The notes beneath the pieces are model-generated. The model saw only the letters and a program-made list of their open reading frames with translations, had not been told where the DNA came from and did not search any database. A stretch of DNA of 37,645 bases from Chiloscyllium plagiosum (lineage: Eukaryota). The stretch is from NCBI RefSeq assembly GCF_004010195.1, contig NC_057760.1:4223764-4261408 (forward strand), given 5' to 3'. Below are positions 1 to 35,835 of the stretch, one piece after another. Position 1 is the stretch's first letter. The number at the start of each line of letters is the position of its first letter. The position numbers were made by a program, and so were the translations under genes.

Positions 1-274
1 CTTTTTCCTGACCTCTCCGCCCCCACCCCACTCTGACCTATCACCCTCACCTTGACCTCTTTCCACCTATCGCATTTCCAATGCCCCTCCCCCAAGTCCC
101 TCCTCCCTACCTTTTATCTTAGCCTGCTGGACATACTTTCCTCATTCCTGAAGAAGGGCTCATGCCCGAAACATCGATTTTCCTGCTCCTTGGATGCTGC
201 CTGACCTGCTGCACTTTTCCAGCAACACATTTTCAGCTCTGATCTCCAGCATCTGCAGTCCTCACTTTCTCCTC
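1..274 (+). mobile_element. 3' end (pyrimidine-rich UTR plus pLTR) of a Penelope-like retroelement with a hammerhead motif at 148-175
   Basis: CTGAAGA-A-GGGC-TCAT-GCCC-GAAAC(A)TC at 148-175, followed by a ~100-nt tail that recurs at 24116-24253, 26818-27003 and 35577-35776; runs off the window start. Confidence 0.8.
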
Positions 275-995
275 GTGATAGACTTTACTTGTATGTGGCT
301 TAACAAAACTCCAACTCTATTCATCTTCGTGTGTCACATACTGGGGGAAATTGCTCTTTTCCTGAAGTAGGTAATTGGTTATAACGATCCAGATTGGTCC
401 GTAACCATCTATGTCTGGAACATTCTATAACTGATATTATTTTTGAACAGCTGAATGTCAGTTAATTGAACAAAAGATAAAATCTAGAGGGAAGAGACCC
501 CTTTCCATGGAGAAGGCGACATTGTTCAGGAACTTCCTCAGGCAGTTAAAGAGGTGGATAAGTTTTCCTTGTATGTAGGTTTCTTCACTACAGAGGATCC
601 ACCACAAGTTAGACATAAAGACAGAAATTTCTAACTTCAATTGGTATTGAAGGAAATGGGAGCGAATCCTTCAGAATGGCAATGTTTTCACCCTCTGTAT
701 TATGAACTGTGAAGACCTGACTTGCGTCTGCTTTCGAGTGATCAAATGTGTGGGAATGTTCCAGAAACCATCTGTTCTTATGGATGTGCGTATGTGTGTT
801 TGGGGAGGGAGGGTTTCTTGTGTTTTGCAGAATATTTTTGTCAGTAATTCAGAACGTATCATTTGTTATTTCAGTGCCAATTTCAATAAATCTCTGAATA
901 TAATGAGATATTTGAAAATCTTAAAAGGTCCTCAAACAAACTGGTAAATTTGCCTCCAGGCTGATGTATAATGTGTTTGCTTTCCTTCCTCACAG

Positions 996-1903
996 TTAAC
1001 GTAGTAACGATCTACGTCCTGCTTTATAAAGATTGTGGATTGTCTCGATGTGTCAGTCATTACCTGGTGGCCATGGCTGTGGCGGATCTACTGGTCATTA
1101 TCCTCGACGTGGTATGGAGACACTTTCCGATTCTTTATAGGAGACAGTTTAATTTCCTGTACTCCATCCCTGTGTGTAATATCCACGCTGTCCTGCTTCA
1201 TGCAACCACTGACTGCTCTGTCTGGTTCACCGTCACTTTCACTTTTGATCGATTTGTGGCCATTTGTTGCCAGAAGCTGAAAAGTAAGTACTGCAGTGAG
1301 AAAACAGCAGCTGTGGTTCTGGGATCAGTGACTGTGCTGAGCTGTTTAAAGAATATTTTCTGGTATTTTATGTTCACAGCTTGGTATTCACAGGAGAGCT
1401 CTCCCTGGTTTTGTGATGTAAGAGACAATGTTTATGACTCTTGTGTCTGGGTCACAATCGAGTTCCTCCACCACATTCTAAACCCGGCACTCCCATTTCT
1501 CCTGATTCTGCTGCTCAATATTTTCACTGTCAGGCACATTTTAGTGGTCAGCAGAGCCCGCAGGAGACTTCGGACTCACATCAATGGGGACGATCAGTCT
1601 GACACAGAAATGCAAAATCGAAAAAAATCCGTCATTTTACTGCTTGTGATCTCGGCCAATTTCATCCTGTTATGGTCAACGTTAATGGTGTGTTCTATAT
1701 GGAGACGGATGTGGCAGATTGGGTATGACTCTGTGTATCTTCATTGGTTCATGCTTGAATTAGGCTTCATGCTGCAGCTCCTCAGTTGCTGCACAAACAC
1801 CGCAATTTATGCCGTGACCCAGACTAAGTTCAGAAAGCAACTGAAGAATGTGCTGAAATATCCCTTTACCCAAATTCATCAATCAATCAAATTCACTCAT
1901 TAA
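996..1903 (+). CDS. Terminal coding exon of a class A (rhodopsin-like) GPCR, GPR139/GPR142-like shark-expanded family; 5' exon not in window
   Basis: Uninterrupted ORF with TM2 YLVAMAVADLL, TM3 Cys and TFDRFVAIC (DRY-type), ECL2 Cys, TM6 NFILLW, TM7 SCCTNTAIY and a helix-8 KFRKQL; polypyrimidine tract plus CAG acceptor ends at 995 (tttgctttccttcctcacag|ttaac); only the second half of TM1 is present. Confidence 0.9.
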
Positions 1904-3701
1904 TGACTCTATCCAGAATTTTCTAATTTCGGTTCAAAGTTTCAACCCTGGAGCAGACTGTTGCTATAGTAACAGACTGAGGACAGTGCTGGTTTGTTCA
2001 CCCTTTGCCACACTGGATTACAGGGACACATTTCATCGTTCTTCTCGACTTAAAGACTAGTGAGAAAAAGCATCGTTCCACTGACTGTATTGATAACTTC
2101 AATTTGGAGTGAACAAAAATGTTCATTACACAGTGCCTCAGGGAATACAGGAGCCCATGTTATGGGATGAAATCTCTCCGTCCTTGCTTTTTCCTCTTGT
2201 GTCACCCAATCCAACCTCGCGTCGGCAGAATTCATCTCCCTCCTTTGCTCCCTCTGCCTCCATAGCTCCCTCCTACTCTCGCACTGTCCCTCTTTCTCTC
2301 TTCCTCTCATTTCCTTACTTTTATGACTTTTCCAACCTCCCCATTCCCCTTGACTCCCTCTCCCTCTCACACATCCCTTACACTGTCCAGAAATATCTTT
2401 CTCGAATTCTCTCTCATCTTCCTCTGCTAGGGTAACAGATTGGGAATGGGTGCACATGTCCTACTATGGAACAGAGTGTGCATAATGATCACAGGCCATT
2501 GCTAGGGGAACAGAGTAGGAATGGATTGACAGGAAATGGATTGCTGTAGGAAAACTGTGAAGATGAGTTCACAAGCCATTGATCGAGCAACACAATGAGG
2601 TTGGGTTCACAAGTTGTTGAGAAGGCAACAGATGAAGTAGAGGTTCAGAAAACATTGCTAGGAAAGCCGAATGGGTTGCTAGGCCATTGGTAAAGGAACA
2701 GAGGGAGAATGGGTTCACAGATCATTGCAAGGGGAACAGGGAAAGAATTGGTTCATAGGCCCTTGGTAGAGGAACAGAGGGAGAATGGGTTCATATGCTG
2801 TTGCTAGGGGAACAAAGCGAGAATGGGTTTGCAGGGAGTTGCTAGTGGAACAGAGGGAGGATTGGCTCAGAGGCCGTTGCTAGAGGGATAGAGGGAGAAT
2901 GGATTGACAGGCCGTTGGCAATGGAACAAATGGAGAATGGGTTCACAGGCCATTGCTAGAGGAACAGAGGGAGAATGGGTTCGCAGGCCGTTGCTAGTGG
3001 AACAGAGGGAGAATGGGTTCACAGGCTGTTGCTAGAGGAACAGAGGGAGAATGGGTTCACAGACCGTTGCTAGACGAACAAAGGGAGAATGGGTTCACAG
3101 GCCGTTGCTGGAGGGACAGAGGGAGAATGGATTGACAGACCGTTGATAATGGAACAGAGGGAGAATGGGTTCACAGGCCGTTGCAAGGGGAACAAAGCGA
3201 GAATGGGTTCACAGGCCATTGGCAATGAAACAAATGGAGAATGGGCTCACAGGCTGTTGCTAGAGGAACAGAGGGAGAATGGGTTCGCAGGCCGTTGCTA
3301 GAGGAACAGAGGGAGAATGGGTTCACAGGCCGTTGCAAGGGAAACAAAGCGAGAATGGGTTCACAGGCTGTTGCTAGAGGAACAGAGGGAGAATGGGCTC
3401 ACAGGCTGTTGCTAGAGGGATAGATGGAGAATGGATTGACAGACCGTTGATAATGGAACAAATGGAGAATGGGTTCACAGGCCGTTGCTAGAGGAACAGA
3501 GGGAGAATGGGTTCGCAGACCGTTGCTGGAGGGACAGAGGGAGAATGGATTGACAGACCGTTGATAATGGAACAGAGGGAGAATGGGTTCACAGGCCGTT
3601 GCAAGGGGAACAAAGCGAGAATGGGTTCACAGGCCGTTGGCAATGGAACAAATGGAGAATGGGTTCGCAGGCCGTTGCTAGAGGAGCAGAGGGAGAATGG
3701 G

Positions 3702-3985
3702 NNNNNNNNNNNNNNNNNNNNNNNNNNNNNNNNNNNNNNNNNNNNNNNNNNNNNNNNNNNNNNNNNNNNNNNNNNNNNNNNNNNNNNNNNNNNNNNNNNN
3801 NNNNNNNNNNNNNNNNNNNNNNNNNNNNNNNNNNNNNNNNNNNNNNNNNNNNNNNNNNNNNNNNNNNNNNNNNNNNNNNNNNNNNNNNNNNNNNNNNNNN
3901 NNNNNNNNNNNNNNNNNNNNNNNNNNNNNNNNNNNNNNNNNNNNNNNNNNNNNNNNNNNNNNNNNNNNNNNNNNNNNNNNNNNNN
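3702..3985. other. Assembly gap (N run) inside the minisatellite
   Basis: Run of N. Confidence 1.
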
Positions 3986-4397
3986 AGAGGGAGAATGGGT
4001 TCACAGGCCGTTGCTAGAGGAACAGAGGGAGAATGGGTTCACAGGCCGTTGCTAGAGGAACAGAGGGAGAATGGGTTCACAGGCCGTTGCTGGAGGGACA
4101 GAGGGAGAATGGATTGACAGACCGTTGATAATGGAACAGAGGGAGAATGGGTTCACAGGCTGTTGGCAATGGAACAAATGGAGAATGGGTTGACAGGCTG
4201 TTGGCAATGGAACAAATGGAGAATGGGTTCACAGGCCGTTGTTAGAGGAACAGAGGGAGAATGGGTTCGCAGGCCTGTTGCTAGAGGAACAGAGGGAGAA
4301 TGGGCTCACAGGCCATTGCTAGAGGAACAGAGGGAGAATGGGCTCACAGACCGTTGCTAGAGGAACAGAGGGAGAATGGGTTCACAGACCTTTAATA

Positions 4398-4600
4398 CAG
4401 GAGGTAAAAACAATGACTGCAGAAGCTGGAAACCAGATTCTGGATTAGTGGTGCTGGAAGAGCACAGCAGTTCAGGCAGCATCCAAGGAGCAGCGAATTC
4501 GACGTTTCGGGCAAAAGCCCTTCATCAGGAATAAAGGCAGGGAGCTCTCTGCCTTTATTCCTGATGAAGGGCTTTTGCCCAAAGCGTCGATTTCACTGCT
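4398..4600. mobile_element. Short palindromic PLE-derived insertion with two opposed hammerhead motifs and a 9-bp TSD
   Basis: CCTTTAATA at 4389-4397 and 4601-4609; spacerless inverted repeat 4485-4604 centred on GAGCTC (4542-4547). Confidence 0.85.
4501..4528 (-). ncRNA. Minimal type I hammerhead ribozyme motif, intact core
   Basis: Minus strand reads auuc-CUGAUGA-A-GGGC-UUUU-GCCC-GAAA-CG-UC-gaau: conserved boxes, 4-bp stem II, 4-bp stem I, GUC cleavage triplet. Confidence 0.8.
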
Positions 4601-5491
4601 CCTTTAATAGAGGAACCGATTGAGAATGGATTCACAAACCATTGCAAGGGTAATGGAGAAATAATTGGTCCACAGGCCATTGCTAGGGAAACAGACAGAA
4701 TGGGGTAACAGGCCATTGCAAGGAGAAAAGTGTGGGAATGTTATAAAAGGCTGTTTCCTTGGCCAACAGAGTGGGCATGGGTTCACAGGCTGTTGCAAGG
4801 GGCACAGAGTGGGAACAGCATTACAGTCTTTTGCTATGGGAACAAAGAAGAGATCAGTCCAGAGGCTATTGTGGGGAGTAGTCAGTTGGAGTGGTTTCAA
4901 AGACCGTTGCTGGGGGAGCAGTGCGAGGTCTAGGTTCACAGGTTGTTGCGAGGGCTGCGGAGCAGAAATGGGTTCACTGGCTGTGTGAGAAGAAAATGAA
5001 GGAGTATGTTAAAAAGACCATTCCCAGGAGAAAAGCATGGCAATTGGATCAAAGGCCGTTGATATACGAACAATGTGGGGATGGGTTCACAAGCTGTTGC
5101 TGGAAGAAAGGAGTGAGGAATGGGTTCAAAAGGCAGTTGCTAGGGAAACCGTGTGTGGATAGGCACACAGTCCATTGTAAGGGGAACACAGTCGTGAGAA
5201 AAATATAATAAGGGTGAATTCACACGGCGTTGTGCAGGGAACAGAATGAGGGTGCAATCAAAGGCTGTTGGCTGGGAACAGTGTAGGGATTGGTTCAGTG
5301 GCCGTTCTTCGGTTAACAGAGTGGTGATGGTTTCACGTACCAGGTTAGGGCACCAGGTGAAGAAGAGGTTCACAGGCTGTTGCTGAGGGAACAGATTGGC
5401 GATGGGATCACAGGCCATTTCAAGGGTAACAGAGAGGTGATGGATTCACAGACCATTGTCAAGAGATTAAAATGGGGATGCATTCTCGAGA

Positions 5492-6352
5492 GAATTGAGG
5501 GCTAATGCAGGCTGCAGCGCGACATAGACAGGATGCAGAGTTGGGCTGAGAAATGCCAGATGGAGTTCAACCTGGATAAATGTGAAGTGATGCATTTTGA
5601 AAGGTTGAACTCGAATACTGAATATAGGATTAAAGACAGGATTCTTGGCAGTGTGGAGGAACAGAGGATCTTGGTGTTCAAGTACGTAGATCCCTCAAAG
5701 TTGCCTCCTAAGTGAATAGGGTTGTTAAGAAAGTATGTGGTATTTTGGCTTTCATTAACAGGGGGATCGAGTTTAAGAGCCGTGAGGTTTTGCTGCAGCT
5801 CTACAAGGGCCTGGTGAGACCACACTTGGAATATTGTGTCCAGTTGTGGTCACCCTACTAAAGGAAAGATACAGAGGCTTTGGAGAGGGTGCAAAGAAGG
5901 TTTACCAGGATGCTGTCTGGATTGGATGGCTTGCTTTATGAGAGAGGTTGACTAAGCTCAGACCTTTCTCTCTGGAGAAAAGGAGGAAAAGAGGTGACCT
6001 GATCGAGGGACACAAGGATAGAGTCAATTACCAGAGACTTTTCTCCAGGGCAGGATTGACTGGCGCAAGGGGTCAGACTTTTAAGATATTAGGAGAAAGG
6101 GATACAGGAGATGTCAGAGGAAGGTTCTTTACGCAAAGAGATGTGAATGGATGGAATGCATTGCCAACGATGGTGGTGGAAGCAGAATCATTAGAGACAT
6201 TTAAGTGACTGCTGGACATGCACACAGACAACAGTGAATTGAAGGGTGCGTAGGTTAAGTTATTTTATTTTACATTAGGTTTAATCCACAGCACAACATC
6301 GTGGGCCAAAGGGCCTGTTCTGTGCTGTATGCTTCTAAATTCTATGTTCTAT
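5492..6352 (+). mobile_element. 5'-truncated CR1-clade LINE (end of RT, C-terminus, 3' UTR)
   Basis: SWAEKCQMEFNLDKCEVMHF, LVRPHLEYCVQ and FSLEKRRKRGDLI peptides; 3' end gggccaaagggcctgtt...(ttctatg)n. Confidence 0.95.
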
Positions 6353-7016
6353 GTTCACAGGCCATTGCTACGTGAACAGAGCAGGGATGGGTGCACAGGC
6401 CATTCCAGAAAGAAAAGAGTTGGTCTCGGTTCAGAATGCCGTTGCTGGAGGAGTAGTGGACGGAAAGGTTCATGGGCTGTTGCGAATACTATATTGTGGA
6501 AATAGTTCACAGGCCCGTTGCAAAGGGATCAGATTAGGAATTGTTTATTGGTCATTACCAGATCAACACGTGGGCAGTGGTTGATAGACCATTGTTGGGG
6601 GAACAGAGTGGGGATAGGTTCACAGGCTGTTGCTGGGGTAACAGCATAAGGATTCTTCTGCAGATCATTGCGGGGAGAACAGATTGGGGGATATGAAGGC
6701 AGATTAGCATCACAGAATGGTTAAAACGCAGCAGGAGTTATTCAAACTATCATGTACTCCTGTAATTATATGATATTTAAAAGGAGTATGCTAATTCCTG
6801 AAGTGTTACAGATGGATTCAATTGACAGATAGTGAGGATTTTTTTTTATTGACTGAGCAAACAAGAAAATGCAACAGGAAAGAACAAAATCATGTAGTGT
6901 TACTTGAGGAGACAGACCTTCTGACAAAAGGTCTGAAATAGAATTTCAGCTGTTTGATGCGAGAGCTTAAAGTTTTAGAGATTCAATCCTAGGTATTTTA
7001 AGTACGGCAAGTAACT

Positions 7017-9685: not shown

Positions 9686-10199
9686 TCATGATTTCACGCA
9701 AGTGTGAGAGTAGGCAGTAGGTTTAACTGACTGTGTTGAGGTGGGCCTGATGTTCAGGAACTCCCCCTCTATATCCCTACGCAACTCATTTTTAGATGCA
9801 ACTTAAAATGAAGGGCATGATCAGCCTGTCGTTCGCCGTTGTCAGCTTTAGTTCTAAAACTTTAATCTCAATTCTTTCTCATAACCTTGCAGAACAGCAG
9901 CTGGCAATGCTTGAGCTTATGATGCAGCAATACTGTTTCGGGTTCTAACTAACTAAGGTTTGTCTTACCTAAAAGTATTTTAATTTTCACCAGAGCGTAG
10001 CTAATTGTGCGGTTTTGCTAAACAATTTAACAAAATATGTCGATAAGTTTTCTCATTCCCTTTCTTATTTACTCACAAAGTCTTAATGCCACTTTTAAAG
10101 GAGGACAGTGTTTCATGGACTCGGCGTGCTCATTTATTCTGTTTCCCAGTGTGAATTGTAACACAGAAAGTATTTATGTTTATCGCCACACGCTGCAGT

Positions 10200-11717: not shown

Positions 11718-12014
11718 GATTAGATTAGATTTCTTTCAGTGTGAAAATAGGCCATTTGGCCCAACTGATCCTCCAAAGGGTAACCCACCCACACCCACTT
11801 CCTTCTGACTAATGCACCTAACACTATGGGCAATTTAGCATGGTCAATTCACCTGACCTGCACATCTCTGAATGGCAGAAGGAAACTGGAAAACCCAGAG
11901 GAAACCCACGCAGGCACAGGGAGAATGTGCAAATTCTACACAGACAGACGCCCAAGGCACGGGGTCCTTGGTGCTGGATGTAGTAGTGTTGACTACTGAG
12001 GCACCGTGCCACCC
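11718..12014 (-). mobile_element. HE1-type tRNA-derived SINE
   Basis: Minus strand starts GGGTGGCACGGTGCCTCAGTAG, has the core TTTGCACATTCTCCCTGTGCCTGCGTGGGTTTCC and ends in (TCTAA)n; similar to 32643-32962. Confidence 0.9.
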
Positions 12015-12029
12015 GACAAAGTTAAAACT

Positions 12030-12223
12030 ACAAAGTAAAAAGGTTGTACAAAGATAAAAATCAGACAACACCAGGTTATAGTCCAACACGTCTATTTGGA
12101 AGCACTAGCTTTTGGAGCACAGCCATTTCATCAGGTCGTTGTGCACAACCATCTGGTGAAGGAGCAGCGCTCTGAAAGCTAGTGCTTCCAAATAAACCTG
12201 TTGGACTAGAACCTAATGCTGTC
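12030..12223. mobile_element. Palindromic PLE-derived element, distinct family (GAAAGCUA type), with two decayed opposed hammerhead motifs
   Basis: Inverted repeat 12064-12223 centred on GTGCAC (12141-12146); + arm CTGGTGA-A-GGAGC-AGC-GCTCT-GAAAGCTA. Confidence 0.8.
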
Positions 12224-15829: not shown

Positions 15830-16025
15830 TTTCTTTCTTAAGCCTTCAAGACTTATCTCTTAATTAAAGATGTTTGATCAATATAGTCTGTCCAATTAAC
15901 ATCTTTCCGCATGTCACATTCGGACTAGTTGTTGAATGCTTCTTCAAGAAACTGCTTTGGTTCGGCTTAAGACATTTTTATTGCATGAAGCATGTTACCT
16001 GAATACAAACTATAACTGTCACAAC
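15830..16025 (+). mobile_element. Possible highly decayed L2-type LINE 3' end
   Basis: Weak resemblance to L2 tails (cttcaagacttatctc...tttgatca; gacatttttattgcatgaagcatgttacctgaatacaaac). Confidence 0.3.
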
Positions 16026-17739: not shown

Positions 17740-17872
17740 ACAGCAAGGTAGCTCAGTGGTGAGCACTGCTGCCTCGCAGTGCCAGGGAACTGGATTCGAT
17801 TCCAGATTCTAGCGACTGTCTGTGCAGTGTTTGCCCATTGTCACTGTGTCTTTGTGGTTTTGCTCCGGTTAT
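17740..17872 (+). mobile_element. HE1-type SINE 5' part
   Basis: Pol III A box (tagctcagtgg) and B box (ggattcgattcc), followed by the start of the HE1 core. Confidence 0.85.
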
Positions 17873-17877
17873 TTCAC

Positions 17878-17942
17878 ATGAAGGGCTAATGCCAGAAATG
17901 TCGGTTGTCCTGCTCCTCGGATGCTGCGTGACTGGCTGTGCA
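17878..17942 (+). mobile_element. Decayed PLE pLTR fragment (hammerhead remnant)
   Basis: atgaagggctaatgccagaaatgtcggttgtcctgctcctcggatgctgc aligns to ~150-200. Confidence 0.7.
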
Positions 17943-18794: not shown

Positions 18795-19177
18795 TCTGGA
18801 TGTAGGTTTGCTCGCTAAGCTGGAAGTTTCATTCCCAGACGTTTTGTCGTCCTACTAGGTAACATCTCCAGTGGTCCTCAGGCGAAGCACTACTGGTAAG
18901 TCCTGCTTTCTATTTGCATGTTTGGGTTTCTTTGGGTTGGTGATATCATTTCCTGTGGTGATGTCATTTCAGATGCGAAGTCACTTCCTGTTCTTTTTCT
19001 CAGGGGGTGGTAGATGGGGGTCTAACTCCATGTGTTTGTTGGTAGAGTTCCGGTGGGAATGCCATGCTTCTTAGAATTCTCATGCGTGTCTTTGCTTGGC
19101 TTGTCCTAGGATGGATGTGTTGTCCCAGTCGAAATGGTGCCCTTCCTCATCCTGGTTACAAATCTTCTCAAAACTCG
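18795..19177 (-). mobile_element. 5'-truncated Penelope-like element: GIY-YIG endonuclease C-terminal coding remnant plus pLTR with a decayed hammerhead
   Basis: Minus translation EEGHHFDWDNTSILGQAKQRHA*EF*EAWHS...NKHMELDPIYHPL; CTGGAGA-T-GTTACC-TAGTA-GGACGAC-AAAACGTC at 18871-18838; TSD ATAA(A/G)CCTCCTT at 18783-18794 and 19178-19189. Confidence 0.85.
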
Positions 19178-19293: not shown

Positions 19294-19460
19294 AGAACAT
19301 AGAACATAGAACATAGAACATAGAACATAGAACATAGAACATAGAACATAGAACATAGAACATAGAACATAGAACATAGAACATAGAACATAGAACATAG
19401 AACATAGAACATAGAACATAGAACATAGAACATAGAACATAGAACATAGAACATAGAACA
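19294..19460 (-). repeat. (TTCTATG)n heptamer microsatellite, about 24 perfect units, forming the CR1 3' tail
   Basis: Perfect AGAACAT repeats on + strand adjoining the CR1 3' UTR. Confidence 0.98.
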
Positions 19461-24115: not shown

Positions 24116-24253
24116 GAGGAGAAAGTGAGGTCTGCAGATGCTGGAGATCAGAGCTGAAAATGTGTTGCTGGAAAAGCGCAGCAGGTCAGGCAGCATCCAG
24201 GGAACAGGAGAATCGACGTTTCGGGCATAAGCCCTTCTTCAGGAAAGCCCTTC
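24116..24253 (-). mobile_element. Solo PLE pLTR insertion with a 14-bp TSD
   Basis: TCCAT(A/C)CTTAATAT at 24102-24115 and 24254-24267; reverse complement of ~146-274; absent from arm A. Confidence 0.88.
24215..24242 (-). ncRNA. Minimal type I hammerhead ribozyme motif, intact core
   Basis: Minus strand CUGAAGA-A-GGGC-UUAU-GCCC-GAAA-CG-UC; stem I very short. Confidence 0.78.
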
Positions 24254-25641
24254 TCCATCCTTAATATACTGAGAGTTGATTCTGTAAATCCTCACGCTCT
24301 CGAATCAAAAAGTTACAAATCTGTTTTAGTTTTTATTGGCAGCTATTCCTCAGAAGATTTGACAGGAGATATGCACAGCTTCCAATGTCTTGTATCTGGA
24401 GTACTGTCTCTTTAAATCACGCTACATGATTGTGCTCTTTTTTGTTCCATTCTCTTGTTTGTTCAGTCAATGAAAACAAATCCTCATTATCTATCAATTG
24501 AATCATTGTTAAACTTCAGAAGATAGCATATATCTTATAAGTTCATACGAATGCAGGACTACATGAGAGCTTGAATAGTCCCTGCAGTTCGTAATCATGA
24601 TATGATGATAATCTGTCCTTAAACATCTCACTCTCTTCTTGATGTAACGATTTGTGAAAGCATTCCCACTCTGTTACTCTTGCAACAGCCCGTGAATCTA
24701 TTCTCACTCTGCCCCCACCCCCACCCCTAGTAATGGCCAGTCAACCGCTGCCCATTTTGTTCACCTAGCAATGACCGGTCCATCAATCCCACTCTGTTCT
24801 CCTTGCAATGGCCTGTGATCAATTCACAATCTGTTCTCCCGCAAAGACCTCCACAACTATTCTACCAGCAATGCGGTTTGAATGCAGAGCCAACCTTTTC
24901 TCTTAGCAATGGTCTTTGAAAGCTTACTTCCTCTATTCCATTCCTCACATGATTGACCGAGGAACATCGTCTAAACCTATCCTTACTCTATTGCCCTTGC
25001 AAGGGCTTGTAAAACTATTCTCATTGTGTTGCAAGAGCCTGTGAACCAATCTTCACCGTATTCCTCCAGCAACAGCCTGTGAACCCATCCACACTTTGAT
25101 ACCTTTGATCATCATCCCCACTCCGTTCCCGAGTAAGTCATGGGAACCCATCCCCAATTGGTTACCCAAGGAAAGGAAGTTGAGTTTGATTTAGAGGCAC
25201 ATAAGTGTGGACAGCATGAGGGAAGCGGAAGGGGGGAGATAAAGGGTCTGCAAGAGGAATAGAGATTCAAGGGAATGGGCACGTAGCAACATGGAACAAA
25301 GAGAGAACATAGGAGGTCAAGAAAGAGAGGGAGCGTGTGAGAGTGGGACGGAGATATTGAGGGATAGGGAGCAAGGGAGGGAGGTGAATTCTGCCGAGGT
25401 CTGATCAGATTAGGTGGTACCAGAGGTGAAAGCAAAGGCAGGGAGACATCGACCAAACTTCTGAGCTCGCCACGGTTCCCTCCCCTTCCTTGAGGCACTG
25501 TTAAATGAACATTTTTGTTCTTTACTAGTTGAAGTTATAGATATAGTCAGTGGAATGGAGTCTTTTATCACTGGTTCCTAAGATGAGAGGAACATTGAAA
25601 TATGTCCCTATAGTCACCTGGGGGATAAGGTTGGACAAGCT

Positions 25642-25772
25642 GGCTCTGCTATTCGGAAGGGCGTGAAAAAGAGTGGAATGGCTATAGTCATAGGGGATTC
25701 AATTGTAAGGGGAGTAGATAGGCGGTTCTATGGCCGAACATGAGACCCTTGAATGGTATGATGTCTCCCAGA
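25642..25772 (+). mobile_element. CR1 ORF1 (SGNH esterase) fragment
   Basis: Encodes KKSGMAIVIGDSIVRGVDRRFYG. Confidence 0.85.
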
Positions 25773-25781
25773 TGGGTCGAC

Positions 25782-26107
25782 CGGACATCGGGACCAATGT
25801 GTCCACACCGACCGTCCAAGGTGCATCTTGTTCCTAAACATCCCCGTATGCTAACCCTGTAATCCTGCATCCCCCTTGGCTAAGACACTTAACCTAAACA
25901 TACCACAACAGTATGGGCAATGTTTCATGACTAATACAAATAAATTGTGCATATTTGGACTGTGAGAGAAAACTGGATCATGTGATGGAAACCCACGTAG
26001 ACACGGGGAGTACGTGGAAACTTCATGCAGGAAGGCACTTGTGGATTGAATTGAACCTGGGTCCCTGGCACTGTGAGGCAGCAGTGCTAACCACAGAGCC
26101 ACCATGC
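25782..26107 (-). mobile_element. HE1-type SINE, diverged
   Basis: + strand ends gaacctgggtccctggcactgtgaggcagcagtgctaaccacagagccaccatgc; contains the ggaaacccacgtagacacgggga core. Confidence 0.88.
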
Positions 26108-26817
26108 AACTCCTAAAAGCGAGGTCTAGAGCTTTTTCCACAGATAGGGATGGATTTAGGATCTGAAGGTTTCTAAAATAAGGAACTATGTAGAGACAGA
26201 AGATGGTTACAGAATCGAGAAGCACTGTAGGGGCTACAGGATGTTATGCAGCTGATTTCACAGTGCAGTAGGTTACATATTGTGGAAATTGTAGGGACTC
26301 GACGAAGTTAAAGAGATGTGCAGAGTTGTAGGTGCTGGTGAAAGTTGCAGATATAATGCACACTGTTGTAACTGGAGAGTTCATGGAGATACTACGACTT
26401 GTCAGAGCAGAAGGGACTTAGTGACATTGATGGTTGCATGGACTAGAAGACATTTTAAAGATTGGGATGTTTTTATGGATTGGAACAATTACAAAGAAAG
26501 TGAGAACAGTCAGCACTTGAGAAAGATTACATAGAGAGGGAGGATTGTCAGGGTTGGAGGAGATTGAGTCAGAACGGAGGGCTACATTGGCTGATGGAGG
26601 TTGTAAAGGTAGGGATGGATTGTACGGGGTCCATTCAGTTACAGAGAAAGCATGTTAATGGAGTTGGAGGACCCTCAATAGATCTTACTGAGCCACATAA
26701 AAGAATTGGCACAGATAATGTCATTTGGCACATGATATTTGCACCAGATCTTCAACTGAACTCATTATCTAGTAATAAACTCCCGCTTTCCCCATATCTT
26801 TACACATCATTATTGGT

Positions 26818-27003
26818 GATGAAAATGTGTTGCTGGAAAAGCGCAGCAGGTCAGGCAGCATCCAAGGAACAGGAGAATCGACGTTTCGTGCATAAGCCCG
26901 AAATGTCGATTCTCCTGTTCCTTGGTTGCTGCCTGACCTGCTGCGCTTTTCCAGCAACACATTTTCAGCTCTGATCTCCAGCATCTGCAGCCCTCACTTT
27001 CTC
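26818..27003. mobile_element. Palindromic PLE pLTR insertion with a perfect 15-bp TSD
   Basis: CACATCATTATTGGT at 26803-26817 and 27004-27018; inverted repeat 26820-26967. Confidence 0.9.
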
Positions 27004-29113
27004 CACATCATTATTGGTCCAATACTCAATCAATCCCTTCTTGAGTGTTTCCATTGAAAATATCCATGCACATCGTAACATCTCATCAAGTGAAAATGCT
27101 CTTACTCATTTCACTCTTTCTTCTTTTATGTATAATTTGAAATCCAAGCCCTCTCATTCTTGTTCCCTTTATGAACAGTAATAGTTCTATTTTATCTGTT
27201 CTATTCAATCTGCTTATGCGTTTGAAAACTCAATCATATCTCCTGTTAGCTACTTTCTGTCCAAAGACACTGTTTCCAACTTCACAGCGGAATTTGTTTA
27301 TCTTGGAACTATTCTTGTAAATAGTTTTTCACGTTTTCCAATGTATTAACATCCTTCTTTCAATGTGACACTCTGGACTGTATACAATACTCCAGTTGAG
27401 GTCTAACATGGGTCTAATGCAAGTTCAACATCACCTCCATGCTCTTATACCGCATAATGAATTTTTAAAAAGCCAAAAATACTTTATGCTTTACTTAGAT
27501 TTTATGTCCTGCAAATTTCAATGATCTGTGCACCTATACCTCCAGTCCTTTGCACCATAGCTTTTCAGATTTTACATCCTATTTTATAATGTCTTTTAAT
27601 GCTCTTGCTAGCAAATTGCATTGTCTTATGATGCTTTGCGCCAAACTTCAGCTACCACCTTTCTGCTCACTTTACCAACTTCTCAATGGTTTTTTTGGAG
27701 TTCTACAATACTTTCCACCTTGCTCAATTTGTTTAAGTTCTGTGATTTATGTAAAATTTGAAATAGCACCTTGCACACCAGGCATAGATTGTTCACACAT
27801 ATCCAAACGTGGAGGTGCCCAAAACTCAGTCCTGGGGCATTGCACTGAAAATCTTGCTCCAACTCAAAAAAAAATCTCGTGACGATTCCTTTCTATTTTC
27901 TATCAGCTAATTTTGTATTCACGTTGATACAGTCCCTTTTATTCCATGAACAAATGAATGAATTAATGAATGAATGATTTTGCTGTCAAGTTGATCGAGG
28001 AAAATGCAGTGAAACATGTTTTGTCACCTATTCCACACAGGTCTAGCTCACCAATATTGTACCATTCTTGTGATAGAGCTTCCATGGCATGGGTAGCTTT
28101 TCCCTCTTTTGTAAAGACAGAGAGAAAGTATTCATTTAACACTTAGCCAAATCGCCTTCTTTCAGTTATAAATACTGTTCCTTGTGTTGAATCAGACTTA
28201 CTCCATCGTTTAGTACTCTCATTATTAGGTATCCACAGAAGATTCTGGGATAGCTCTATGTTTGCTATCCGTTGTCTCATAATTCCCCCCTGCTCAATCT
28301 TCTCCCCTCTGAGTCGTCAACATTCCTCTTTGTTCCCATACGATTCTCTATCTGACACCTACTTTATTATTCTTCTTCACCTTAATTTCTTGCTTTATCA
28401 TCCAGAACGTTTTGGGTTTGCTTATCCTGCCTTTCTGATAGGAGGGAGAATTCCTTGACTCAACCCAAGCATTTCTCTTTGAAGGGAGTCCATTGTTCAG
28501 TTTTTGTTTTTCTCTCCAACTCGGTGTTCCAGTCTAATCTTCCCATCTTCATTCCTGCACCATTGAAACCACTCTCAGTCAACTGATGTTTCGCACTTTC
28601 AGTTGTTGCATGTCCTTCTCTAAAATCACCCTAAAATTTATAGTAAAATGATTACTATGCCCTAATATGTTGCCGAATGGCACTGGATCCAATTGCCCTC
28701 TCTCTTTTCCAAGGACCACGTCCAACACTGGGTTGGAGACATATTTCTGAAGTGAGCTTTACTCCGTGCAATCTAGAAACACTTACCCCTCATAGCCCTG
28801 GCACTGCCAGTATCCAAGTTTATATTTGAATCATTTAAGTTTCTCTGTATAATTGCTCTACGATGTTGCCACCTTTCTCTAATATCTCTGAGAATTTGTT
28901 CTCTCCATGTTTTGCATTGATTAGTGTCATATAGACTGTGCCTTACAGTGTAATTCTACACTTTTTGTTCTGTACCTCAAGCCAAAATCATTCTGACCTT
29001 GGAGGTAATGTCTTTCTCTCAGACTCATTAACTAACGCTACTCTAAACCTCGGCACTTCATCTCTTCCTTTCTGTCAACTGTGAATACTTTGTATAGAGC
29101 AATATTTAACATC

Positions 29114-29319
29114 AGTTGTGAATGCATGGAATGCATTGCCAGCCGTGGTGGTGGAAGCAGTGTCATTGGGGACATTTAAGCGACTGCTGGACAAGCACAT
29201 GGATAGTTGAAGGGTGCATAGGTTAAGTTACTATATTTGACATTTGGATTAAATCTCAGCACAACATTATGGACCAAAGGACCTGTTCTGAGCTGTACTT
29301 TTTTATGTTCTATGTTCTA
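29114..29319 (+). mobile_element. Short CR1 3' end, same subfamily as 5492-6352
   Basis: tggaatgcattgccagc...gacatttaagcgactgctggac...tatgttctatgttcta. Confidence 0.9.
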
Positions 29320-32021
29320 TCATGTCCTGACATTCCTTGAATTAACTCTCAGTAATCACTGCATCATCAGATTTCCACATACCAGTCAGCATCTGTAGCT
29401 CCCCAATCTTATTTACTGAAGTCCGAGTACTCCCATGCATGCAGAATAACTACAATGTAGATGTCATTTGCTTCCATATTCCGTCTTCAGTTATTGAACT
29501 AACTGTTGTAAACTTGCACCAGCTGCATTTCCAAGAGTTTTGGGGATCCTGGTAGTCTCCTCAACACTTCCTTTTGGTTCCCACACACCTACCAACTTAA
29601 TTTAAAACCTTCCCAACAGCACTAGCCAAATGTTCCCCAAAGAACTCAATCCTGGCACTCGGAGCAATCCAGCGAGTCCTGCTTGCTAACCTTCCATCTG
29701 GATCCCTAAATTCTGATTCCCAGACCTCATCACACTTCCTATCCACATCATTGTGACCAGCATGGACCATGACCTCTGACTGCTCATCTTCAAACAAAAG
29801 AATATTCTGAAGATGCTGTGACATTCTTGACCCCGTCATCCTGGAGTTATAGAGTCATCTGCACTGAAGAGTGGTGCATCTTAGGCCTGGGTTCAAGGAG
29901 TGGTTCAGACTGAAACACGGCATCACTGTAATGTTTCTTCCCTTCCTTCTCATCTAACCAGAAATAATGTGTAAAGAGACGTGTTATTGAAAAAAATGTT
30001 GGTCGCAGAGTAAGTAGTAAGGCTTTGGCCTAACAGGCTTCGGAGAGCAACTCTTCAGCAAGATGTACAGGTAAGCTCAGATAAAGTCCTTTTAAAATTC
30101 CACTTTAGTCTTAGAGCAGTTGAGATAGGAGTTAGGGCAATCACATGCTCCTCCTGCAGGATGTGGGAGCTCAGGCAGACCTCCGTCGTCCCTTGTGAGT
30201 AAACGTGTGTAGTGTGCACCCAACTGCATCTCCTCCAAGACTGTGTTATGAAGGTCGATCTGGCTGCACTCAGGATCATCTGAGATGTGGAACTCATCAT
30301 AGATCAGAGATTTAATGAGATGGTCACAACTAAGTTGTTGGCAGAGAGTGGCTGTGTAACCACCAGCAAAGGCAGAGGGAGTAGACAGAGAGTGTAGGAA
30401 TCTTCTGTAGCCAATCCCCTCGAAAACAAGTATGCTATTTTGGTCACTGTTGGAGGGATTATTGTTCATGGGAAAGCAGCAGTAGCCAGGTCGATGGTGC
30501 TACGAATGGCTCTGGAGCACAACAGGAAAAGGGTAAAGGTAGCAGGACCTCAGTGATAGGAGATTCGATAGCTAGGGGGACAGATAGCAGAGTTTGTGCC
30601 CGCAAACGGAAATCCAGGGTGGTGTGTTGCAAAACCACGTGCCAGAGTCCATGCTGTTTAGGAGTGGCTGCAGAACTTTCTCAGTGGGGAGGGTGAGCAA
30701 CTAGAAGTCATTGTGCACCTTGGAATAAATGGCATCGGTAGAAATAGGGATGAGGTTCTCCTTTTTTATACAGTTAGAAAAAAAGCTAAAAGCCCGGACC
30801 TCTATAGTGGGTTACTTCCAGTGTCACGTGCTGGTGAGGATAAAACAGGAGAATATGGAAAATATCTGTGGCTAAAGATATGCTGCGGGCAGGGATTCAG
30901 ATTTTCAGATCAGGGCTGAGGTGATCTGTTCCAGAAGGACGCATTGCACCTGAACAGGAGGGGGATTAGTATCTTGGCGGGAAGGTTTGCTAGTGCAACG
31001 AAGGAGGATTTAAACTGGATTGGCAAGGAATAGTTGGATCCTCAACAGCAGGCAGGCAACTGTGAAGCTGGATTGATGTAATGTAATCAGAAATAGTAAG
31101 ATGATGGGACTGGTCAGGCTGGAACATGGCAGGGAGCAAGGATTGACTTTTCAATGAAATTGCATCTATTTCAATGCAAAAGGTTGTCAGGCAAGGCCCA
31201 TGAACTCAAGGTATGGATACATATGTGGGACTGGGATATTATAGCCATTGCAGAAACATGGCTAAGAGAGGGAATGGATGGGCAGCTTTATATGCCAGTG
31301 TACAGATGGTTGAGGCGGGACAGAGGTGGTGGGGAAGGAATGTATGGGGAGTTAAATGCTTGATTAAGGTGAGCTTCACGGCATTACGCAGATATGAAAT
31401 AAATGAAGGATCATCCAGTGAGGCTTTGTGGGTGGAGCTAATAAATAAGAAGGGGATGGTGATATTATTGGGGTTGTACTACAGTACCCTAAATAGTCAA
31501 CAGGAAATAGAGGAACAACTATGGAGGGAGGTTGGGGAGTCTAGCAGGAGCAATAAAATTGTTAGAGTGGGGATTTAATATTTTCTAATATGGACTGGAA
31601 CTGCCATGGCGTTAAGGGCTTAGATGACGTGAAATTTTAAAATATGATTAGGAAGGTTTTCGCAAGCAGCATATACAGGGTCTAACTCGGGAATCACAAA
31701 ACTCCACTTACTCTTCGGACATTGGGCAGGGTTGGTTACTGAGGTGATGGTGTGGGCGCACTTTGGGACCAGTGTATTAATTTTAAAATCGTTAAAGAGA
31801 GGGACAAAACTAATCCACACTCTCAATTTCTAACTTTGGCCAAGGCAAATTTTGATAAAATTAAACAGGAGCTTGCAGGGGTTGATGGGAGTAGTTGTTT
31901 GCAGCCAAAGGGAGGCATTCAAATGTACAATAGCTGGAGTTTAATGTCCATATGTTCTTGTGTGCATGAAAGCAGGGTTAGCAGGAGTAGGGGACGCTGG
32001 ATGACAAGAAATGTTGAAGAA

Positions 32022-32094
32022 GTAGAGGTGCCGGTATTGGTTTTGGGTGGACAAAAAGCACACAACACCAGATTATAGTCCAACAGGCTTATTT
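32022..32094. mobile_element. Terminal fragment of the 12030-12223 PLE-derived family, inserted in CR1
   Basis: cacaacaccagattatagtccaacaggcttattt matches ~12064-12097. Confidence 0.75.
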
Positions 32095-32642
32095 GAGATC
32101 TTGAGCCTTTGGCGAGAAGAAAAAGAAGAAGGCATGGCTCAGCCAAAGGCAGCTGGGATCAAGGGAATCCCTGGAAGTATATAGGCAATACAGGAGGTGA
32201 CTGAACAATGAAATTAGGAGGATGAACATGAGGCACGAGATAGCCTTGGCTGAGAAGGTTAGGGTGAATCTATGAGGTTAGGGTGAAAGAATAACTCAAG
32301 ACAGAATAGGACCTCTCAAGAGCCATAGTGGACATGTATGTGTGATATTGCAGGAGATGAGTGAGATCCTTAATCAATATATCTCCTCTGTGTTTACCTT
32401 GGAGAAAGACATAAAGACTTGGGAAATCAGGGAAGTTTGTATTGATATCTTAGGGACAATACATATCTCAGTAGAGGAGGTGTTGGATGTATGAGAATGT
32501 ATGAAGTGGATAAGTCCCCTTAGTTTAACTAGATATGTCCAAGAATTGTGCAAGAGGGTAAAAAATAATTTGCAGTGCCCCAAGCTGATATATGTGCATC
32601 AGTTTTAGCCATGTATGAGATCCCAGAACTGGAGGGTAGCGA

Positions 32643-32962
32643 ATTAGATTAGATTAGATTAGATTACAGTGTGGAAACAGGCCCTTCGGCCCAACAAGTC
32701 CACACCGACCCGCCAAAGCGAAACCCACCCATATCCCTACATTTACCCCTTACCTAACACTATGGGCAATTTAGTATGGCCAATTCACCTAACCTGCACA
32801 TCTTTGGACTGTGGGAGGAAACCGGAGCACCCGGAGGAAACCCACGCAGACACGGGGAGAACGTGCAAACTCCACACAGTCAGTCGCCTGAGTCGGGAAT
32901 TGAACCCGGGTCTCTGGCGCTGCGAGGCAGCAGTGCTAACCACTGTGCCACCGTGCCGCCCA
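32643..32962 (-). mobile_element. Young full-length HE1-type SINE inserted in CR1 ORF2
   Basis: CpG-rich; intact A box (TGGCACAGTGG) and B box (GGTTCAATTCC); CR1-like tail plus (TCTAA)n; splits the host motif WRVA|NVVPL. Confidence 0.95.
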
Positions 32963-33017
32963 CCAATGTTGTACCCTTAACCAAGAAGAGATGTAAAGAA
33001 AAATCAGGGAACTGTAG

Positions 33018-34500
33018 ATCCCCAGGGCCAGACCAGATTTACCCTAGGTTGCTCCGGGAAACGAGAAAGGAGGTTGCTAAGCGGCTTCCTCACTCTCCAC
33101 GGGAGTCGTAACCTCCTAACTCAAGAAGGGAGATAGGGAAATCCCTGGCAATTACAGACAAGTCAGTCTTACGTCTGTAGTCAGCAAGATTTGGAAAAAA
33201 CTCTGAGGGATAGGATTAATGACTATTTGGAAAAGCATAGTGTGATTCAAGGCAGTCAGCATGGCATTGTGAGGGGCAGGGCATGCCTCACTAATCTTAT
33301 TTTGTTCTTTGAGGAGATGACGAGACAGGTCGACAAAAGTCGAGCAGTCGATGTGGTGTATATGGACTTCAGCAAGGCATTTGATAACGTTCCCCATGGT
33401 AGGCTCATTCAGGAGGTATGGGATACAGGGTGATTTGGCTGCCTGGATTCAGAATTGGTTGGCTGACAGAAGGCAGAGAGTGGTTGTAGATGGAAAGTAT
33501 TCTGCCTGGATGTTAGTGGTGAGTAGTGTCTGCAGGCCTCTGTTCTTGGGCCTCTGTTCTTTGTAGTTTTAATAAATGACTTGGGTGAGGAGGTTGAGGA
33601 GTGGGTTAGTACATTTGCAGATGACACAAAGGTTGGACGTGCCATTGATAATATAGAGGGCTATTGCAGGCTGCAGCGCAACGTAGACAGGATACAGAGC
33701 TGGGCTGAGAAATGGAAGATGGAGTTCAACCTGGATAAATGCGAAGTGATGCATTTTGGAAGGTCGAACTTGAATGCTGAATATAGGATTAAAGACAGGA
33801 TTCTTGGCGGTGTGGAGGAACAGAGGGATCTTGGTGTTCAAGCGCATAGATCCCTCAAAGTTGCCACCCAAATGGATAGGGTTGTTAAGAAAGCAGGGGA
33901 TCGAATTTAAGAACCGTGAGGTTTTGCTGCAGCTCTACAAGACCCTGGTTAGACCTCACTTAGAATATTGTGTCCAGTTCTGGTCACCCTATTATGGGAA
34001 GATACGGAGGCTTTGGATAGGGTGCAAAGAAGGTTACCAGGATGCTGCCTGGACTAGAGGGCTTGCCATACGAAGAGAGGTTGATTAAGCTCGGACTTTT
34101 CTCGCTGGAGAGAAGGAGGAAGAGAGGTGACCTGATTGAGGTATACAAGGTAATGAGAGGAATGGATAAATTCAATAGCCAGAGATTTTTCCTCAGGGCA
34201 CAATTGATGGCCCGAGGCGTCATAGTTTGAAGATATTAGGAAGAAGGTATGGTGGAGATGTCAGAGGTAGGTTCTTTACACAGAGAGTTGTCAATACATG
34301 GAATGCATTGCCAGCAGAGGTGGTGGGAGTAGAGTCATTAGGGACATTTAAGTGACTGTTGGACATGCACATGGACAGCAGTTAATTAAGGGGTGCATAG
34401 GTTAGGTTATTTTATTTTAGATTAGGAATAATCCTCGCCACAACATCATGGGCCAAAGGGCCTGTTCTATGCTGTACTTTTCTAAATTCTAAATTCTAAA
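33018..34500 (+). mobile_element. CR1 LINE RT domain plus 3' UTR, same subfamily as 5492-6352
   Basis: SPGPDQIYPRLL, QHGIVRGRACLTNL, VYMDFSKAFD, FADDTKVG; tail (ttctaaa)n. Confidence 0.95.
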
Positions 34501-35290
34501 TGGTAACAATGGCAGAGTTGAAACGTGAATGACAGTATTGAGATAGATAGAGTAGAGATGCTAAAAACGCTGGCAGCGGTCCAGACTGAGAAGTCACCAG
34601 ACTGAGGTGGATGCATCCAGATTGCGAATGAAGTTAAGGAACAAATCGCGGAGTGATGTCACCAACAACTGGAGGATTGTAAATGTGACACCGTTGTTTA
34701 CGAAACTGGCAAAGGATAACCCAGGAAACAGCAGAGCAGGACATGACATCAATGGTGGGAAAACAGATGGAGGCCACAAAACAGGATAATGCAGTTAACA
34801 TGATTTTGTCAAGGCCAGATCATCTGTAACAAGTTTAATTGAGTTCGATGATGAAGTGGCACCGGCGGTAGATGAGGGTACTGTTGCACATGTTATATAT
34901 TTGATCTTTCAGGAAAGGAATGATACTGGTGCAACATGGCACTGCGGTAGCAAACTAGAAATGCTTGGAATTCATGAGTCATTGCTAGCATGGATTCGTG
35001 TTTGACTAAAGGATCAGAAGTAGAGGATAGTGGCGGTGGGCATTTGCCAGATTAGAGATGAGTTGAAAGTGATGTTGCCCACAGATCTGGGTTTGGACCT
35101 CTGCTTTTCCTGATTGATGTAAAGGATTTGAAGATGGGTGTTGAAAACAAAATGCCTAAATTTGTAGATGATTTAAGGGTGGCAAGGCAAGTTGAAACAG
35201 TAGCAAAGAAATCTGATAGAATCCTTGGATTTATAAATTGAATTGTAGACCAAGGAAGCAAGGAAGTGATGCAACATGTCTACAAAAAGA
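34501..35290 (+). mobile_element. Old decayed CR1 RT fragment
   Basis: WRIVNVTPLFTK...DNPGN, decayed YLDFQK and KFVDD motifs. Confidence 0.75.
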
Positions 35291-35341
35291 GTCACCATTT
35301 GATAAAGTCATGTAGCACAGAAACAGACCTTTCAGTGCAAC

Positions 35342-35835
35342 TATTTAAGGTGAGAAGTGAAATATTTTAGGGGGATACATGCGGCAAGTACTTTATTCAG
35401 AGAGTGGTAGGTGCCTGGAACGCGTTGCCAGCAGAGGTAATAGAGGCAGGCACAGTAGATTCATTTAAGATGCGTCTGGACAGATGCATGAGTAGGTCGG
35501 GAGCAGAGGGATACCAATGCTTAGGAATTGGGCGATAGGTTTAAACAGTGGATTTGGATTGGCTCAGGCTTGGAGGAAGTGAGGACTGCAGATGCTGGAG
35601 ATCAGAGCTTAAAAATGTGTTGCTGGGAAAGCGCAGCAGGTCAGGCAGCATCAAAGGAACAGGAGAATCGACGTTTCAGGCCTGAAGAAGGGCTTATGCC
35701 CAAAACGTCGATTCTCCTGTTCCTTTGATGCTGCCTGACCTGCTGCGCTTTTCCAGCAACACATTTTTAAGCTCTAGCTTGGAGGGCCGAGAAGCCTGTT
35801 CCTGGGCTGTAAACTTTCTTTGTTCTTTGTTCTTT
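35342..35835 (+). mobile_element. Short CR1 3' end, itself interrupted by a PLE palindrome
   Basis: tggaacgcgttgccagc...gcttggagg[insert]gccgagaagcctgtt...(ttctttg)n. Confidence 0.88.
35577..35776. mobile_element. Palindromic PLE pLTR insertion with a 9-bp TSD and hammerhead motif (35682-35709, G12 mutated)
   Basis: GCTTGGAGG at 35568-35576 and 35777-35785; inverted arms span 35604-35775. Confidence 0.9.

What the first reader, a model, noticed from the sequence alone, without database searches (positions are those of the whole stretch)
148..35776. Dispersed set of tiny TSD-flanked, hammerhead-bearing Penelope derivatives (three to four families in 37 kb)
Seen: the motif CUGAnGA-N-stem II-GAAA-(CG/GC)-UH or a remnant of it occurs in seven separate insertions (148, 4501/4561, 12106/12153, 17878, 18838, 24215, 35682), plus a half-motif palindrome at 26818-27003. 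Stem II differs between families but stays paired (GGGC/GCCC with different loops; GGAGC/GCTCY; GTTACC/GGnnAC). Four units are only 138-203 bp, non-coding and bounded by 9-15 bp TSDs. Established: Penelope-like elements carry minimal type I hammerheads in their pLTRs, with a palindromic, near-absent stem III thought to need dimers; an extra nucleotide after A9 is known in natural hammerheads. Inference: these may be a non-autonomous ribozyme-carrying SINE/retrozyme-like class in sharks, mobilised by PLE RT/GIY-YIG, rather than mere truncations.
Basis: partly seen in the sequence, partly recalled or inferred. Interest (0 to 1): 0.75.

Follow-up and report, generated by a model that had tools for sequence, protein, structure and literature searches.

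The report
Penelope retroelement start-site run-off stubs
These short, often mirror-image inserts are end pieces of three very abundant Penelope-type jumping genes that carry a small hammerhead-ribozyme motif, and in two of the three families they stop just before that motif, likely because copying runs off the capped start of the parent RNA, so they are likely dead-end by-products rather than a new ribozyme-driven element class.

Summary
Family A is the terminal repeat (pLTR) of a Neptune-type Penelope-like element: a pLTR-RT-GIY-YIG-pLTR partial tandem exists in the genome. Family C carries a Poseidon-like endonuclease remnant. In a 1.15-1.34 Mb sample of the genome, lengths are continuous (45-720 bp), no whole insert recurs, 67 arm pairs are inverted and 0 tandem, and the hammerhead decays like its flanks: not a retrozyme or single-master SINE. 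The ends are not random either: 27 of 39 arms stop at 139-152, 1 of 54 at the predicted cut site. Genome-wide, 12,132 of 43,497 exact copies break at one base, A144, an initiator-like site 31 nt below a TATA-like motif; 61% of these have G before it (G:A 2.2 against 0.6 at a control site). Best reading: internal priming near the 5' end of the capped, uncleaved full-length RNA, run-off, then joining of two cDNAs. No RNA start was shown directly. Other agents of this scan reached the same reading on other DNA.

The parts
1..272 (+). Family A (Neptune-type) 3' pLTR of a ~1.8-kb copy that begins before the window. TATA-like TTTATC at 113, initiator-like A144, hammerhead motif 144-179 (predicted cut after 175), tail-less end ~238, tail end ~272; right TSD copy 271-285
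4403..4600 (-). Family A older subfamily, head-to-head pair of arms, 198 bp, 14-bp TSD; intact motif on the minus strand at 4528, broken mirror copy at 4561
12051..12215 (.). Family B head-to-head pair (GGAGC/GCTCC stem II, GCUA site); both motif copies mutated; no TSD found
17871..17938 (+). Decayed family A fragment (q153-211), CUGA lost, no TSD found
18795..19177 (-). Family C (Poseidon-like): inverted tail piece plus 5'-truncated body with endonuclease C-terminal remnant (19151-18984) and mutated motif at 18871; 12-bp TSD; inserted in a LINE RT fragment
24116..24253 (-). Family A solo stub, 138 bp, 14-bp TSD; q145-272 preceded by a 9-bp jump-back piece; intact motif at 24242
26818..27003 (+). 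Family A head-to-head unit, 186 bp, 15-bp TSD; inverted arm q235-156 joined to forward arm q164-272 through the 4-base stem II overlap (the half-motif palindrome)
35577..35776 (.). Family A head-to-head unit, 200 bp, 9-bp TSD; tail-bearing arm on the minus strand, tail-less arm q147-240 on the plus strand with G12 mutated

Best explanation
The short units are pieces of the terminal repeat of endonuclease-bearing Penelope-like elements, each with its own junction, and they are likely dead-end copies made when the element's reverse transcriptase primes about 95 or 130 bases inside the capped, uncleaved full-length RNA and likely runs off its start just before the hammerhead motif. Shown: the module is the pLTR of an RT/GIY-YIG element; two fixed 3' ends (q230-242 and q268-272); a sharp 5' break at A144; head-to-head arms; TSDs; passage through the predicted cut site. 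Inferred: A144 is the transcription start; the extra G is the copied cap; the endonuclease nicks both strands 9-16 bases apart and each nick primes a cDNA, one from each internal site; the two cDNA ends, or one end and the target, are joined by 1-4 base overlaps, sometimes after short template jumps. Long copies would come from priming at the same sites in the 3' pLTR of the RNA.
For: L194 is a pLTR-ORF-pLTR partial tandem, unit 3431 bp, with an RT match (RVT_1, E 1.7e-6, just under the curated cut-off), a CX4CX2C linker and a weak GIY-YIG match (E 0.007-0.08). Sample, 60 young arms: 27 of 39 at risk stop at q139-152 (0.084 per base), 13 of 52 at 153-169, 1 of 54 at 173-179, 6 of 60 at 180-200; 3' ends 31 at q230-242 and 29 at q268-272. 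Genome-wide exact counts of the base before A144: C (templated) 31,365, G 7,390, A 3,395, T 1,347; at an internal C|A step G 61, A 101 out of roughly 28,000 (scaled from 12 sample hits). TTTATY lies at -31 to -33 in 26 of the 29 upstream stretches that hold it, across subfamilies with diverged spacers. Family B repeats the pattern: up to 28 of 40 arms stop at -12 to +1, a TATAAAT lies 32 bases above A(-8), and 3 of 3 arms stopping at A(-8) have G before it. RNA reads show the same break as loose ends at q144 (122 and 152 reads). In vitro, Anolis Poseidon nicks and extends both strands, primes at two internal sites near the start of its ORF, and uses uncleaved RNA (PMC11167929).
Against: No RNA start was seen: no place where many molecules begin or end in the one informative run, a single-cell polyA library read at about 2%. 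In 34 of 48 G loci read by eye the G can equally be the partner's base (8 in the TSD, 12 from an inverted arm ending at q143-148, 8 elsewhere in the arm, 6 in jump pieces); only 8 are clearly extra and 6 unclear. Breaks are spread over q139-152, not one base, and 23,382 of the 31,365 C copies continue to q141. Family C shows no such cluster (2 of 16 arms). The control site is dominated by point mutations. The biochemical model comes from a Poseidon element, family A is Neptune-type. The cap-G signature is recalled from non-LTR elements; my searches returned no supporting paper.
Confidence: 0.68

Rival explanations
1. Short copies are themselves sources: a stub is transcribed from q144 by an internal or neighbouring promoter and is re-inserted in trans by the Neptune protein, a SINE-like second round with the same ends.
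For: Stubs hold the initiator-like base and both priming sites; pLTR sequences suffice for mobilisation in trans in a rotifer (PMC3846280 passage). Haplotypes TCT and CCT are 16 of 40 short arms but 1 of 10 random long arms (small, not tested statistically). A second-round copy would look the same as a first-round one.
Against: All five common short haplotypes occur in long copies. Stubs lose the -31 TATA-like motif. The motif decays like its flanks (7 of 695 against 51 of 2909 non-CpG changes, p 0.18; CpG 18 of 206 against 19 of 226). In Anolis the RNA must extend past the priming sites (PMC11167929), which stubs lack. 89-90% of RNA reads run on into unrelated sequence, on both strands.
Confidence: 0.13
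2. The q144 break is not the RNA start but a stall or processing point at the 5' edge of the hammerhead (a protein-bound or dimeric fold, a splice acceptor, or a nuclease stop) on a longer RNA primed in its 3' pLTR.
For: In families A and B the break hugs the hammerhead edge; in D. virilis Penelope an intron ends at the 5' end of helix I (PMC4209133); most G bases can be read as partner bases.
Against: No recurring upstream exon precedes A144; stem I is at most 4 bp and its 3' strand is already copied by then (inference); the TATA-like spacing and the G excess are unexplained.
Confidence: 0.13
3. The units are non-LTR retrozymes: tandem or dimer transcripts self-cleave at GUC/CUA, circularise and are re-inserted as unit-length copies.
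For: A hammerhead motif is present and 43 of 137 arms that span it are intact; retrozymes are reported to derive from pLTRs and to occur in one chondrichthyan genome (10.64898/2026.07.22.740005).
Against: 0 tandem pairs against 67 inverted pairs; 1 of 54 arms starts at the cut site; ends are the PLE tail sites; no unit length; no free RNA ends at the cut site.
Confidence: 0.03
4. Plain random 5' truncation and inversion of full-length PLE copies.
For: Continuous lengths and unique junctions; 5' truncation with an inverted copy and a 30-40 bp tail is the textbook PLE layout; it fits family C.
Against: For family A the stop rate at q139-152 is 5 to 30 times that of the stretches 3' of it, and G or A precedes A144 in 10,785 of 43,497 copies against about 0.6% at a control step.
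Confidence: 0.03

Closest known systems
EN+ Penelope-like elements, Neptune clade (family A, probably B) and Penelope/Poseidon clade (family C); insertion layout with pLTR, inverted 5'-truncated copy and 30-40 bp tail (10.1101/2021.04.23.441226; PMC3846280)
   Same: RT plus C-terminal GIY-YIG, CX2-5CxxC linker in family A, partial tandem, head-to-head inverted arm, tail on one end only, TSDs, TATA/initiator-like motifs in the pLTR.
   Different: Most copies are only the 95-130 base module and break at one base with a G excess; I did not find this described in the papers searched.
Minimal type I hammerheads of metazoan PLEs (PMC4209133)
   Same: Extra base between positions 9 and 10.1, G10.1-C11.1, 4-bp helix I, palindromic 15.2-16.2; widespread as single motifs and as opposite-strand pairs 100-700 bp apart, read there as truncated PLEs.
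   Different: Helix II is 4-6 bp here; sharks are not named in the parts read; activity untested here.
Anolis Poseidon (PAc) internal initiation (PMC11167929)
   Same: Two internal priming sites 30-40 bases apart downstream of the hammerhead, both strands extended, uncleaved RNA used, no RNA-seq ends at the cut site.
   Different: That work did not map the natural RNA start or describe run-off stubs in the parts read; different PLE clade from family A.
Non-LTR retrozymes (PMC7229834; 10.64898/2026.07.22.740005)
   Same: Small, non-coding, hammerhead-bearing, pLTR-related, dependent on PLE enzymes.
   Different: Retrozymes are tandem repeats, mostly with canonical hammerheads, expressed as unit-length circles; these units are solo or inverted, of variable length, and do not start at the cut site.

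Membership tests
EN+ Penelope-like element (family A) | RT with C-terminal GIY-YIG endonuclease in the parent element | tested here: met
   RVT_1 E 1.7e-6 (28.3 bits, cut-off 29.6) and GIY-YIG E 0.007-0.08 (below cut-off), in that order, upstream of the pLTR; reading frame broken in the copy examined
EN+ Penelope-like element (family A) | pLTR formed by partial tandem; inverted 5' copy; 30-40 bp tail on one end | tested here: met
   L194 partial tandem; 67 inverted pairs; 3' ends at q230-242 and q268-272
Neptune clade (family A) | CX2-5CxxC motif between RT and endonuclease | tested here: met
   CX4CX2C in L183; criterion
Neptune clade (family A) | RT phylogeny places it in the clade | not tested
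   no reference PLE proteins were held
EN+ Penelope-like element (family B) | link to an RT/GIY-YIG ORF | tested here: inconclusive
   an endonuclease-like C-terminal remnant lies upstream in L108 by eye but gave no tblastn match to the family A or C endonuclease; layout (inverted arms, ~35-bp tail) fits
Penelope/Poseidon clade (family C) | GIY-YIG endonuclease; clade placement | tested here: inconclusive
   window 19151-18984 matches the L143 frame at 58% (E 4e-16), which shows a Y-x-L...YIG motif by eye; Pfam gave no family; the clade label rests on recalled resemblance
Minimal type I hammerhead of PLEs | conserved core, paired stem II, extra base after A9, palindromic stem III | tested here: met
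   intact in 2 of 9 window copies and 43 of 137 sample arms
Minimal type I hammerhead of PLEs | self-cleavage as dimer or with protein | not testable with these tools
   needs in vitro assay
Non-LTR retrozyme | tandem repeats with a hammerhead in each unit | tested here: not met
   0 same-strand adjacent pairs among 278 arms in 1.34 Mb; no such array in the window; rare arrays elsewhere in the genome are not excluded
Non-LTR retrozyme | unit-length copies or RNAs bounded by the cleavage site | tested here: not met
   1 of 54 arms starts at q173-179; no free RNA ends listed in one run
SINE-like non-autonomous family | recurring whole unit copied from short master(s) | tested here: not met
   53 TSD-bounded inserts of 45-720 bp, none repeated as a whole
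SINE-like non-autonomous family | subfamilies private to short copies | tested here: inconclusive
   five common haplotypes shared with long copies; proportions differ; only three sites and 50 random arms

The most novel reading that the evidence does not exclude
Shark Neptune elements leave a fossil record of a retrovirus-like 'strong-stop' step: hundreds of thousands of stubs mark the capped RNA start, both internal priming sites and two-strand priming, and show that the hammerhead is uncut when the RNA is copied; some stubs may be re-transcribed and re-inserted, forming a Pol II, ribozyme-bearing SINE-like class with no master copy.
Probability: 0.13. Interest if true: 0.65.

Novelty: new member of a known kind. 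Interest (0 to 1): 0.36.

Why it matters
How Penelope-like elements transpose, and what their hammerhead does, is still open. These stubs give genomic evidence that fits the one in vitro study (internal priming, both strands, uncleaved RNA) in a second clade, and predict a transcription start to the base. They also warn that short palindromic, TSD-flanked hammerhead repeats in shark annotations need not be MITEs, SINEs or retrozymes. The elements themselves are of a known kind.

Tried and rejected
Rfam scan: only hairpin-type miRNA matches below gathering score, no hammerhead model. A 63-base tail query in the genome returned nothing because common words are skipped; evenly spaced 10-kb stretches of the large contigs were used instead (140 stretches). 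The top hits share the query's junction by selection and were not used for counts. The first break count (43 of 59) included at least 5 arms of other subfamilies whose upstream sequence differs; restricts to 60 arms of one group. PDB sequence search with the RT: nothing useful. Pfam on the RT-thumb and family C frames: no family. Run search: no RNA holder listed on record; run X20 laid no reads. A splice-acceptor reading of q144 was considered and found no recurring upstream exon. Literature searches that found no description of shark PLE stubs, of run-off at the RNA start or of a cap G in PLEs; most subscription papers, Repbase and Dfam were not searchable, and bioRxiv supplements and the PAc supplementary figures were not seen.
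Full report
Coordinates: q = window position 1-272, used as the family A reference.

Observation. The seven insertions and the palindrome are present. The bare motif pattern is not above chance (8 matches against 4.66 expected), but the copies are clearly homologous. Four units are 138-200 bp with 9-15 bp TSDs. The unit at 148 is the end of a ~1.8-kb copy with an inverted 5' arm, an assembly gap and a 15-bp TSD. The unit at 18838 is a 383-bp insert with an endonuclease remnant. Only 2 of 9 motif copies are intact (by eye). Rfam has no matching hammerhead model and monomers fold no better than shuffles.

Parent elements. Long family A copies run back into a coding region with RT motifs, a CX4CX2C linker and a GIY-YIG-like stretch; Pfam gives RVT_1 E 1.7e-6 and GIY-YIG E 0.007-0.08, all under the curated cut-offs. 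A protein search found 154 matches from 150 scored candidates of 69,822. Of 16 extended loci, one (L194) is a full partial tandem, pLTR-ORF-pLTR, unit 3431 bp, the 5' repeat with the tail and the 3' one without. The linker motif marks the Neptune and Nematis clades, and 5' truncation, an adjacent inverted copy and a 30-40 bp tail on one end are the standard PLE layout (10.1101/2021.04.23.441226, passages; PMC3846280, passages). Family C is tied to a different endonuclease (58% match to L143), Poseidon-like by recalled resemblance; family B has the same layout but its link to an ORF is by eye only. Single and opposite-strand minimal hammerheads from truncated PLEs were reported in many animals, with no monomer and low dimer activity (PMC4209133, abstract, results, discussion).

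Sample of the genome. In 120 evenly spaced 10-kb stretches (1.148 Mb without N) there are 104 tail-bearing family A arms, roughly 3 x 10^5 in the genome; 278 arms in 140 stretches (1.344 Mb) suggest about 5 x 10^5 insertions. The 53 of 104 with a TSD score of 12 or more are 45-720 bp long (median 193); the 46 printed have no repeated whole structure. A few junction types recur through short overlaps, also across subfamilies, which points to a recurring mechanism, not descent. Adjacent arms are inverted in 67 cases and tandem in 0. The motif decays like its flanks (non-CpG 7 of 695 against 51 of 2909, p 0.18; CpG 18 of 206 against 19 of 226), and 43 of 137 spanning arms are intact. The five common three-site haplotypes of short arms all occur in long copies, though TCT and CCT are 16 of 40 short against 1 of 10 random long arms. 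Retrozymes are defined by tandem units and unit-length circles (PMC7229834, passages; 10.64898/2026.07.22.740005, parts 1-3 of 5); these features are not met.

The ends are fixed. Among 60 young arms, 3' ends fall at q230-242 (31) and q268-272 (29); 5' ends fall at q139-152 in 27 of 39 at risk, and at the predicted cut site (q173-179) in 1 of 54. Exact genome counts of the base before A144: C 31,365, G 7,390, A 3,395, T 1,347; 23,382 of the C class continue to q141. At an internal C|A step the counts are G 61 and A 101 out of about 28,000 (scaled). A144 sits in a YYANWYY context (consensus recalled) and TTTATY lies at -31 to -33 in 26 of 29 upstream stretches that hold it (copies of one subfamily are not independent). 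Family B: up to 28 of 40 arms stop at -12 to +1 (some are other subfamilies), with TATAAAT 32 bases above A(-8) and G before A(-8) in 3 of 3. Family C does not show this (2 of 16). D. virilis Penelope has an internal pLTR promoter with the start 46 bases above an intron (PMC2377424, passages) that ends at helix I, so a hammerhead near the RNA start has precedent.

Caution on the G. Of 48 G loci (two duplicates dropped), 34 can be read as a one-base overlap with the partner (8 TSD, 12 inverted arm ending at q143-148, 8 elsewhere in the arm, 6 jump pieces), 8 are clearly extra and 6 unclear (by eye). An added C on the cDNA would select such G partners at many different positions, as seen, but palindromic joints alone supply a quarter of them. 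The cap reading is likely, not shown, and rests on recalled behaviour of other RTs (searches gave no paper).

RNA. In raw reads of one single-cell polyA run (about 2% read), depth is several hundred over q144-272 and 0-8 over the UTR and ORF unique to full-length copies; 89-90% of reads run on into unrelated sequence, on both strands; loose ends peak at q144 and q272-274; no place where many molecules begin or end is listed. This is read-through of embedded copies. It confirms the break positions and says nothing direct about the start site.

Mechanism. Anolis Poseidon protein nicks and extends both target strands, primes at two internal RNA sites whose spacing is the tail, and uses uncleaved RNA (PMC11167929, main text). 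In a transcript starting at A144 of the 5' pLTR those sites lie about 95 and 130 bases from the start, so priming there can only give stubs of those lengths; two stubs joined at their 3' ends give the head-to-head units, one gives a solo unit, and run-off followed by a jump gives pieces such as the 9-bp repeat in 24116-24253. The palindrome at 26818-27003 is such a joint through stem II. I put this at 0.68; secondary mobilisation of stubs 0.13; a stall or processing point 0.13; retrozyme 0.03; plain random truncation 0.03.

Verdict. New members of a known kind, with a mechanistic signature that I did not find in the papers searched. After I had recorded this reading, the scan's notes showed 25 findings with these words and eight listed reports with the same conclusion, two in this genome; these are unchecked AI notes and add no evidence. 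Interest 0.36.

Noticed in passing
window 965-1903 (+): Single open frame of 312 aa matching rhodopsin-family 7TM receptors (7tm_1, E 2.6e-17).
   Followed up: partly
window 2669-4387, degenerate copies to ~6660: 38-bp minisatellite with an assembly gap; the family A unit at 4403-4600 is inserted into it.
   Followed up: no
window 2000-2348 and 25271-25631: Inverted, 72-75% identical non-coding blocks, possibly an old local duplication of the receptor-gene flank.
   Followed up: no
window 19294-19460: Perfect (AGAACAT)n array of 24 units at the end of a LINE RT fragment.
   Followed up: no
window 11816-11952, 17743-17868, 25903-26107, 32752-32956: Related dispersed repeat that looks tRNA-derived (SINE-like by eye).
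   Followed up: no
L194 3691-3770 (q161 onward): In young family A copies an ATG lies in loop II of the hammerhead and opens a 26-codon frame ending at a TGA before the tail; older subfamilies lack the ATG.
   Followed up: no
genome-wide, e.g. G000:C1:13016586-13016629: A perfect palindromic joint in which both arms end at q144-145 with a 4-base overlap recurs in about a fifth of the first 100 rows; a jump-back joint (q153-160 placed before q145) recurs among the hits.
   Followed up: partly
family C arms in the sample: The Poseidon-like family lacks the break cluster at the hammerhead edge seen in families A and B (2 of 16 arms), a possible clade difference.
   Followed up: partly
L031 7681-9000 and many long copies: Long copies with inverted arms are often interrupted by assembly gaps, so full-length elements are probably under-represented.
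   Followed up: no
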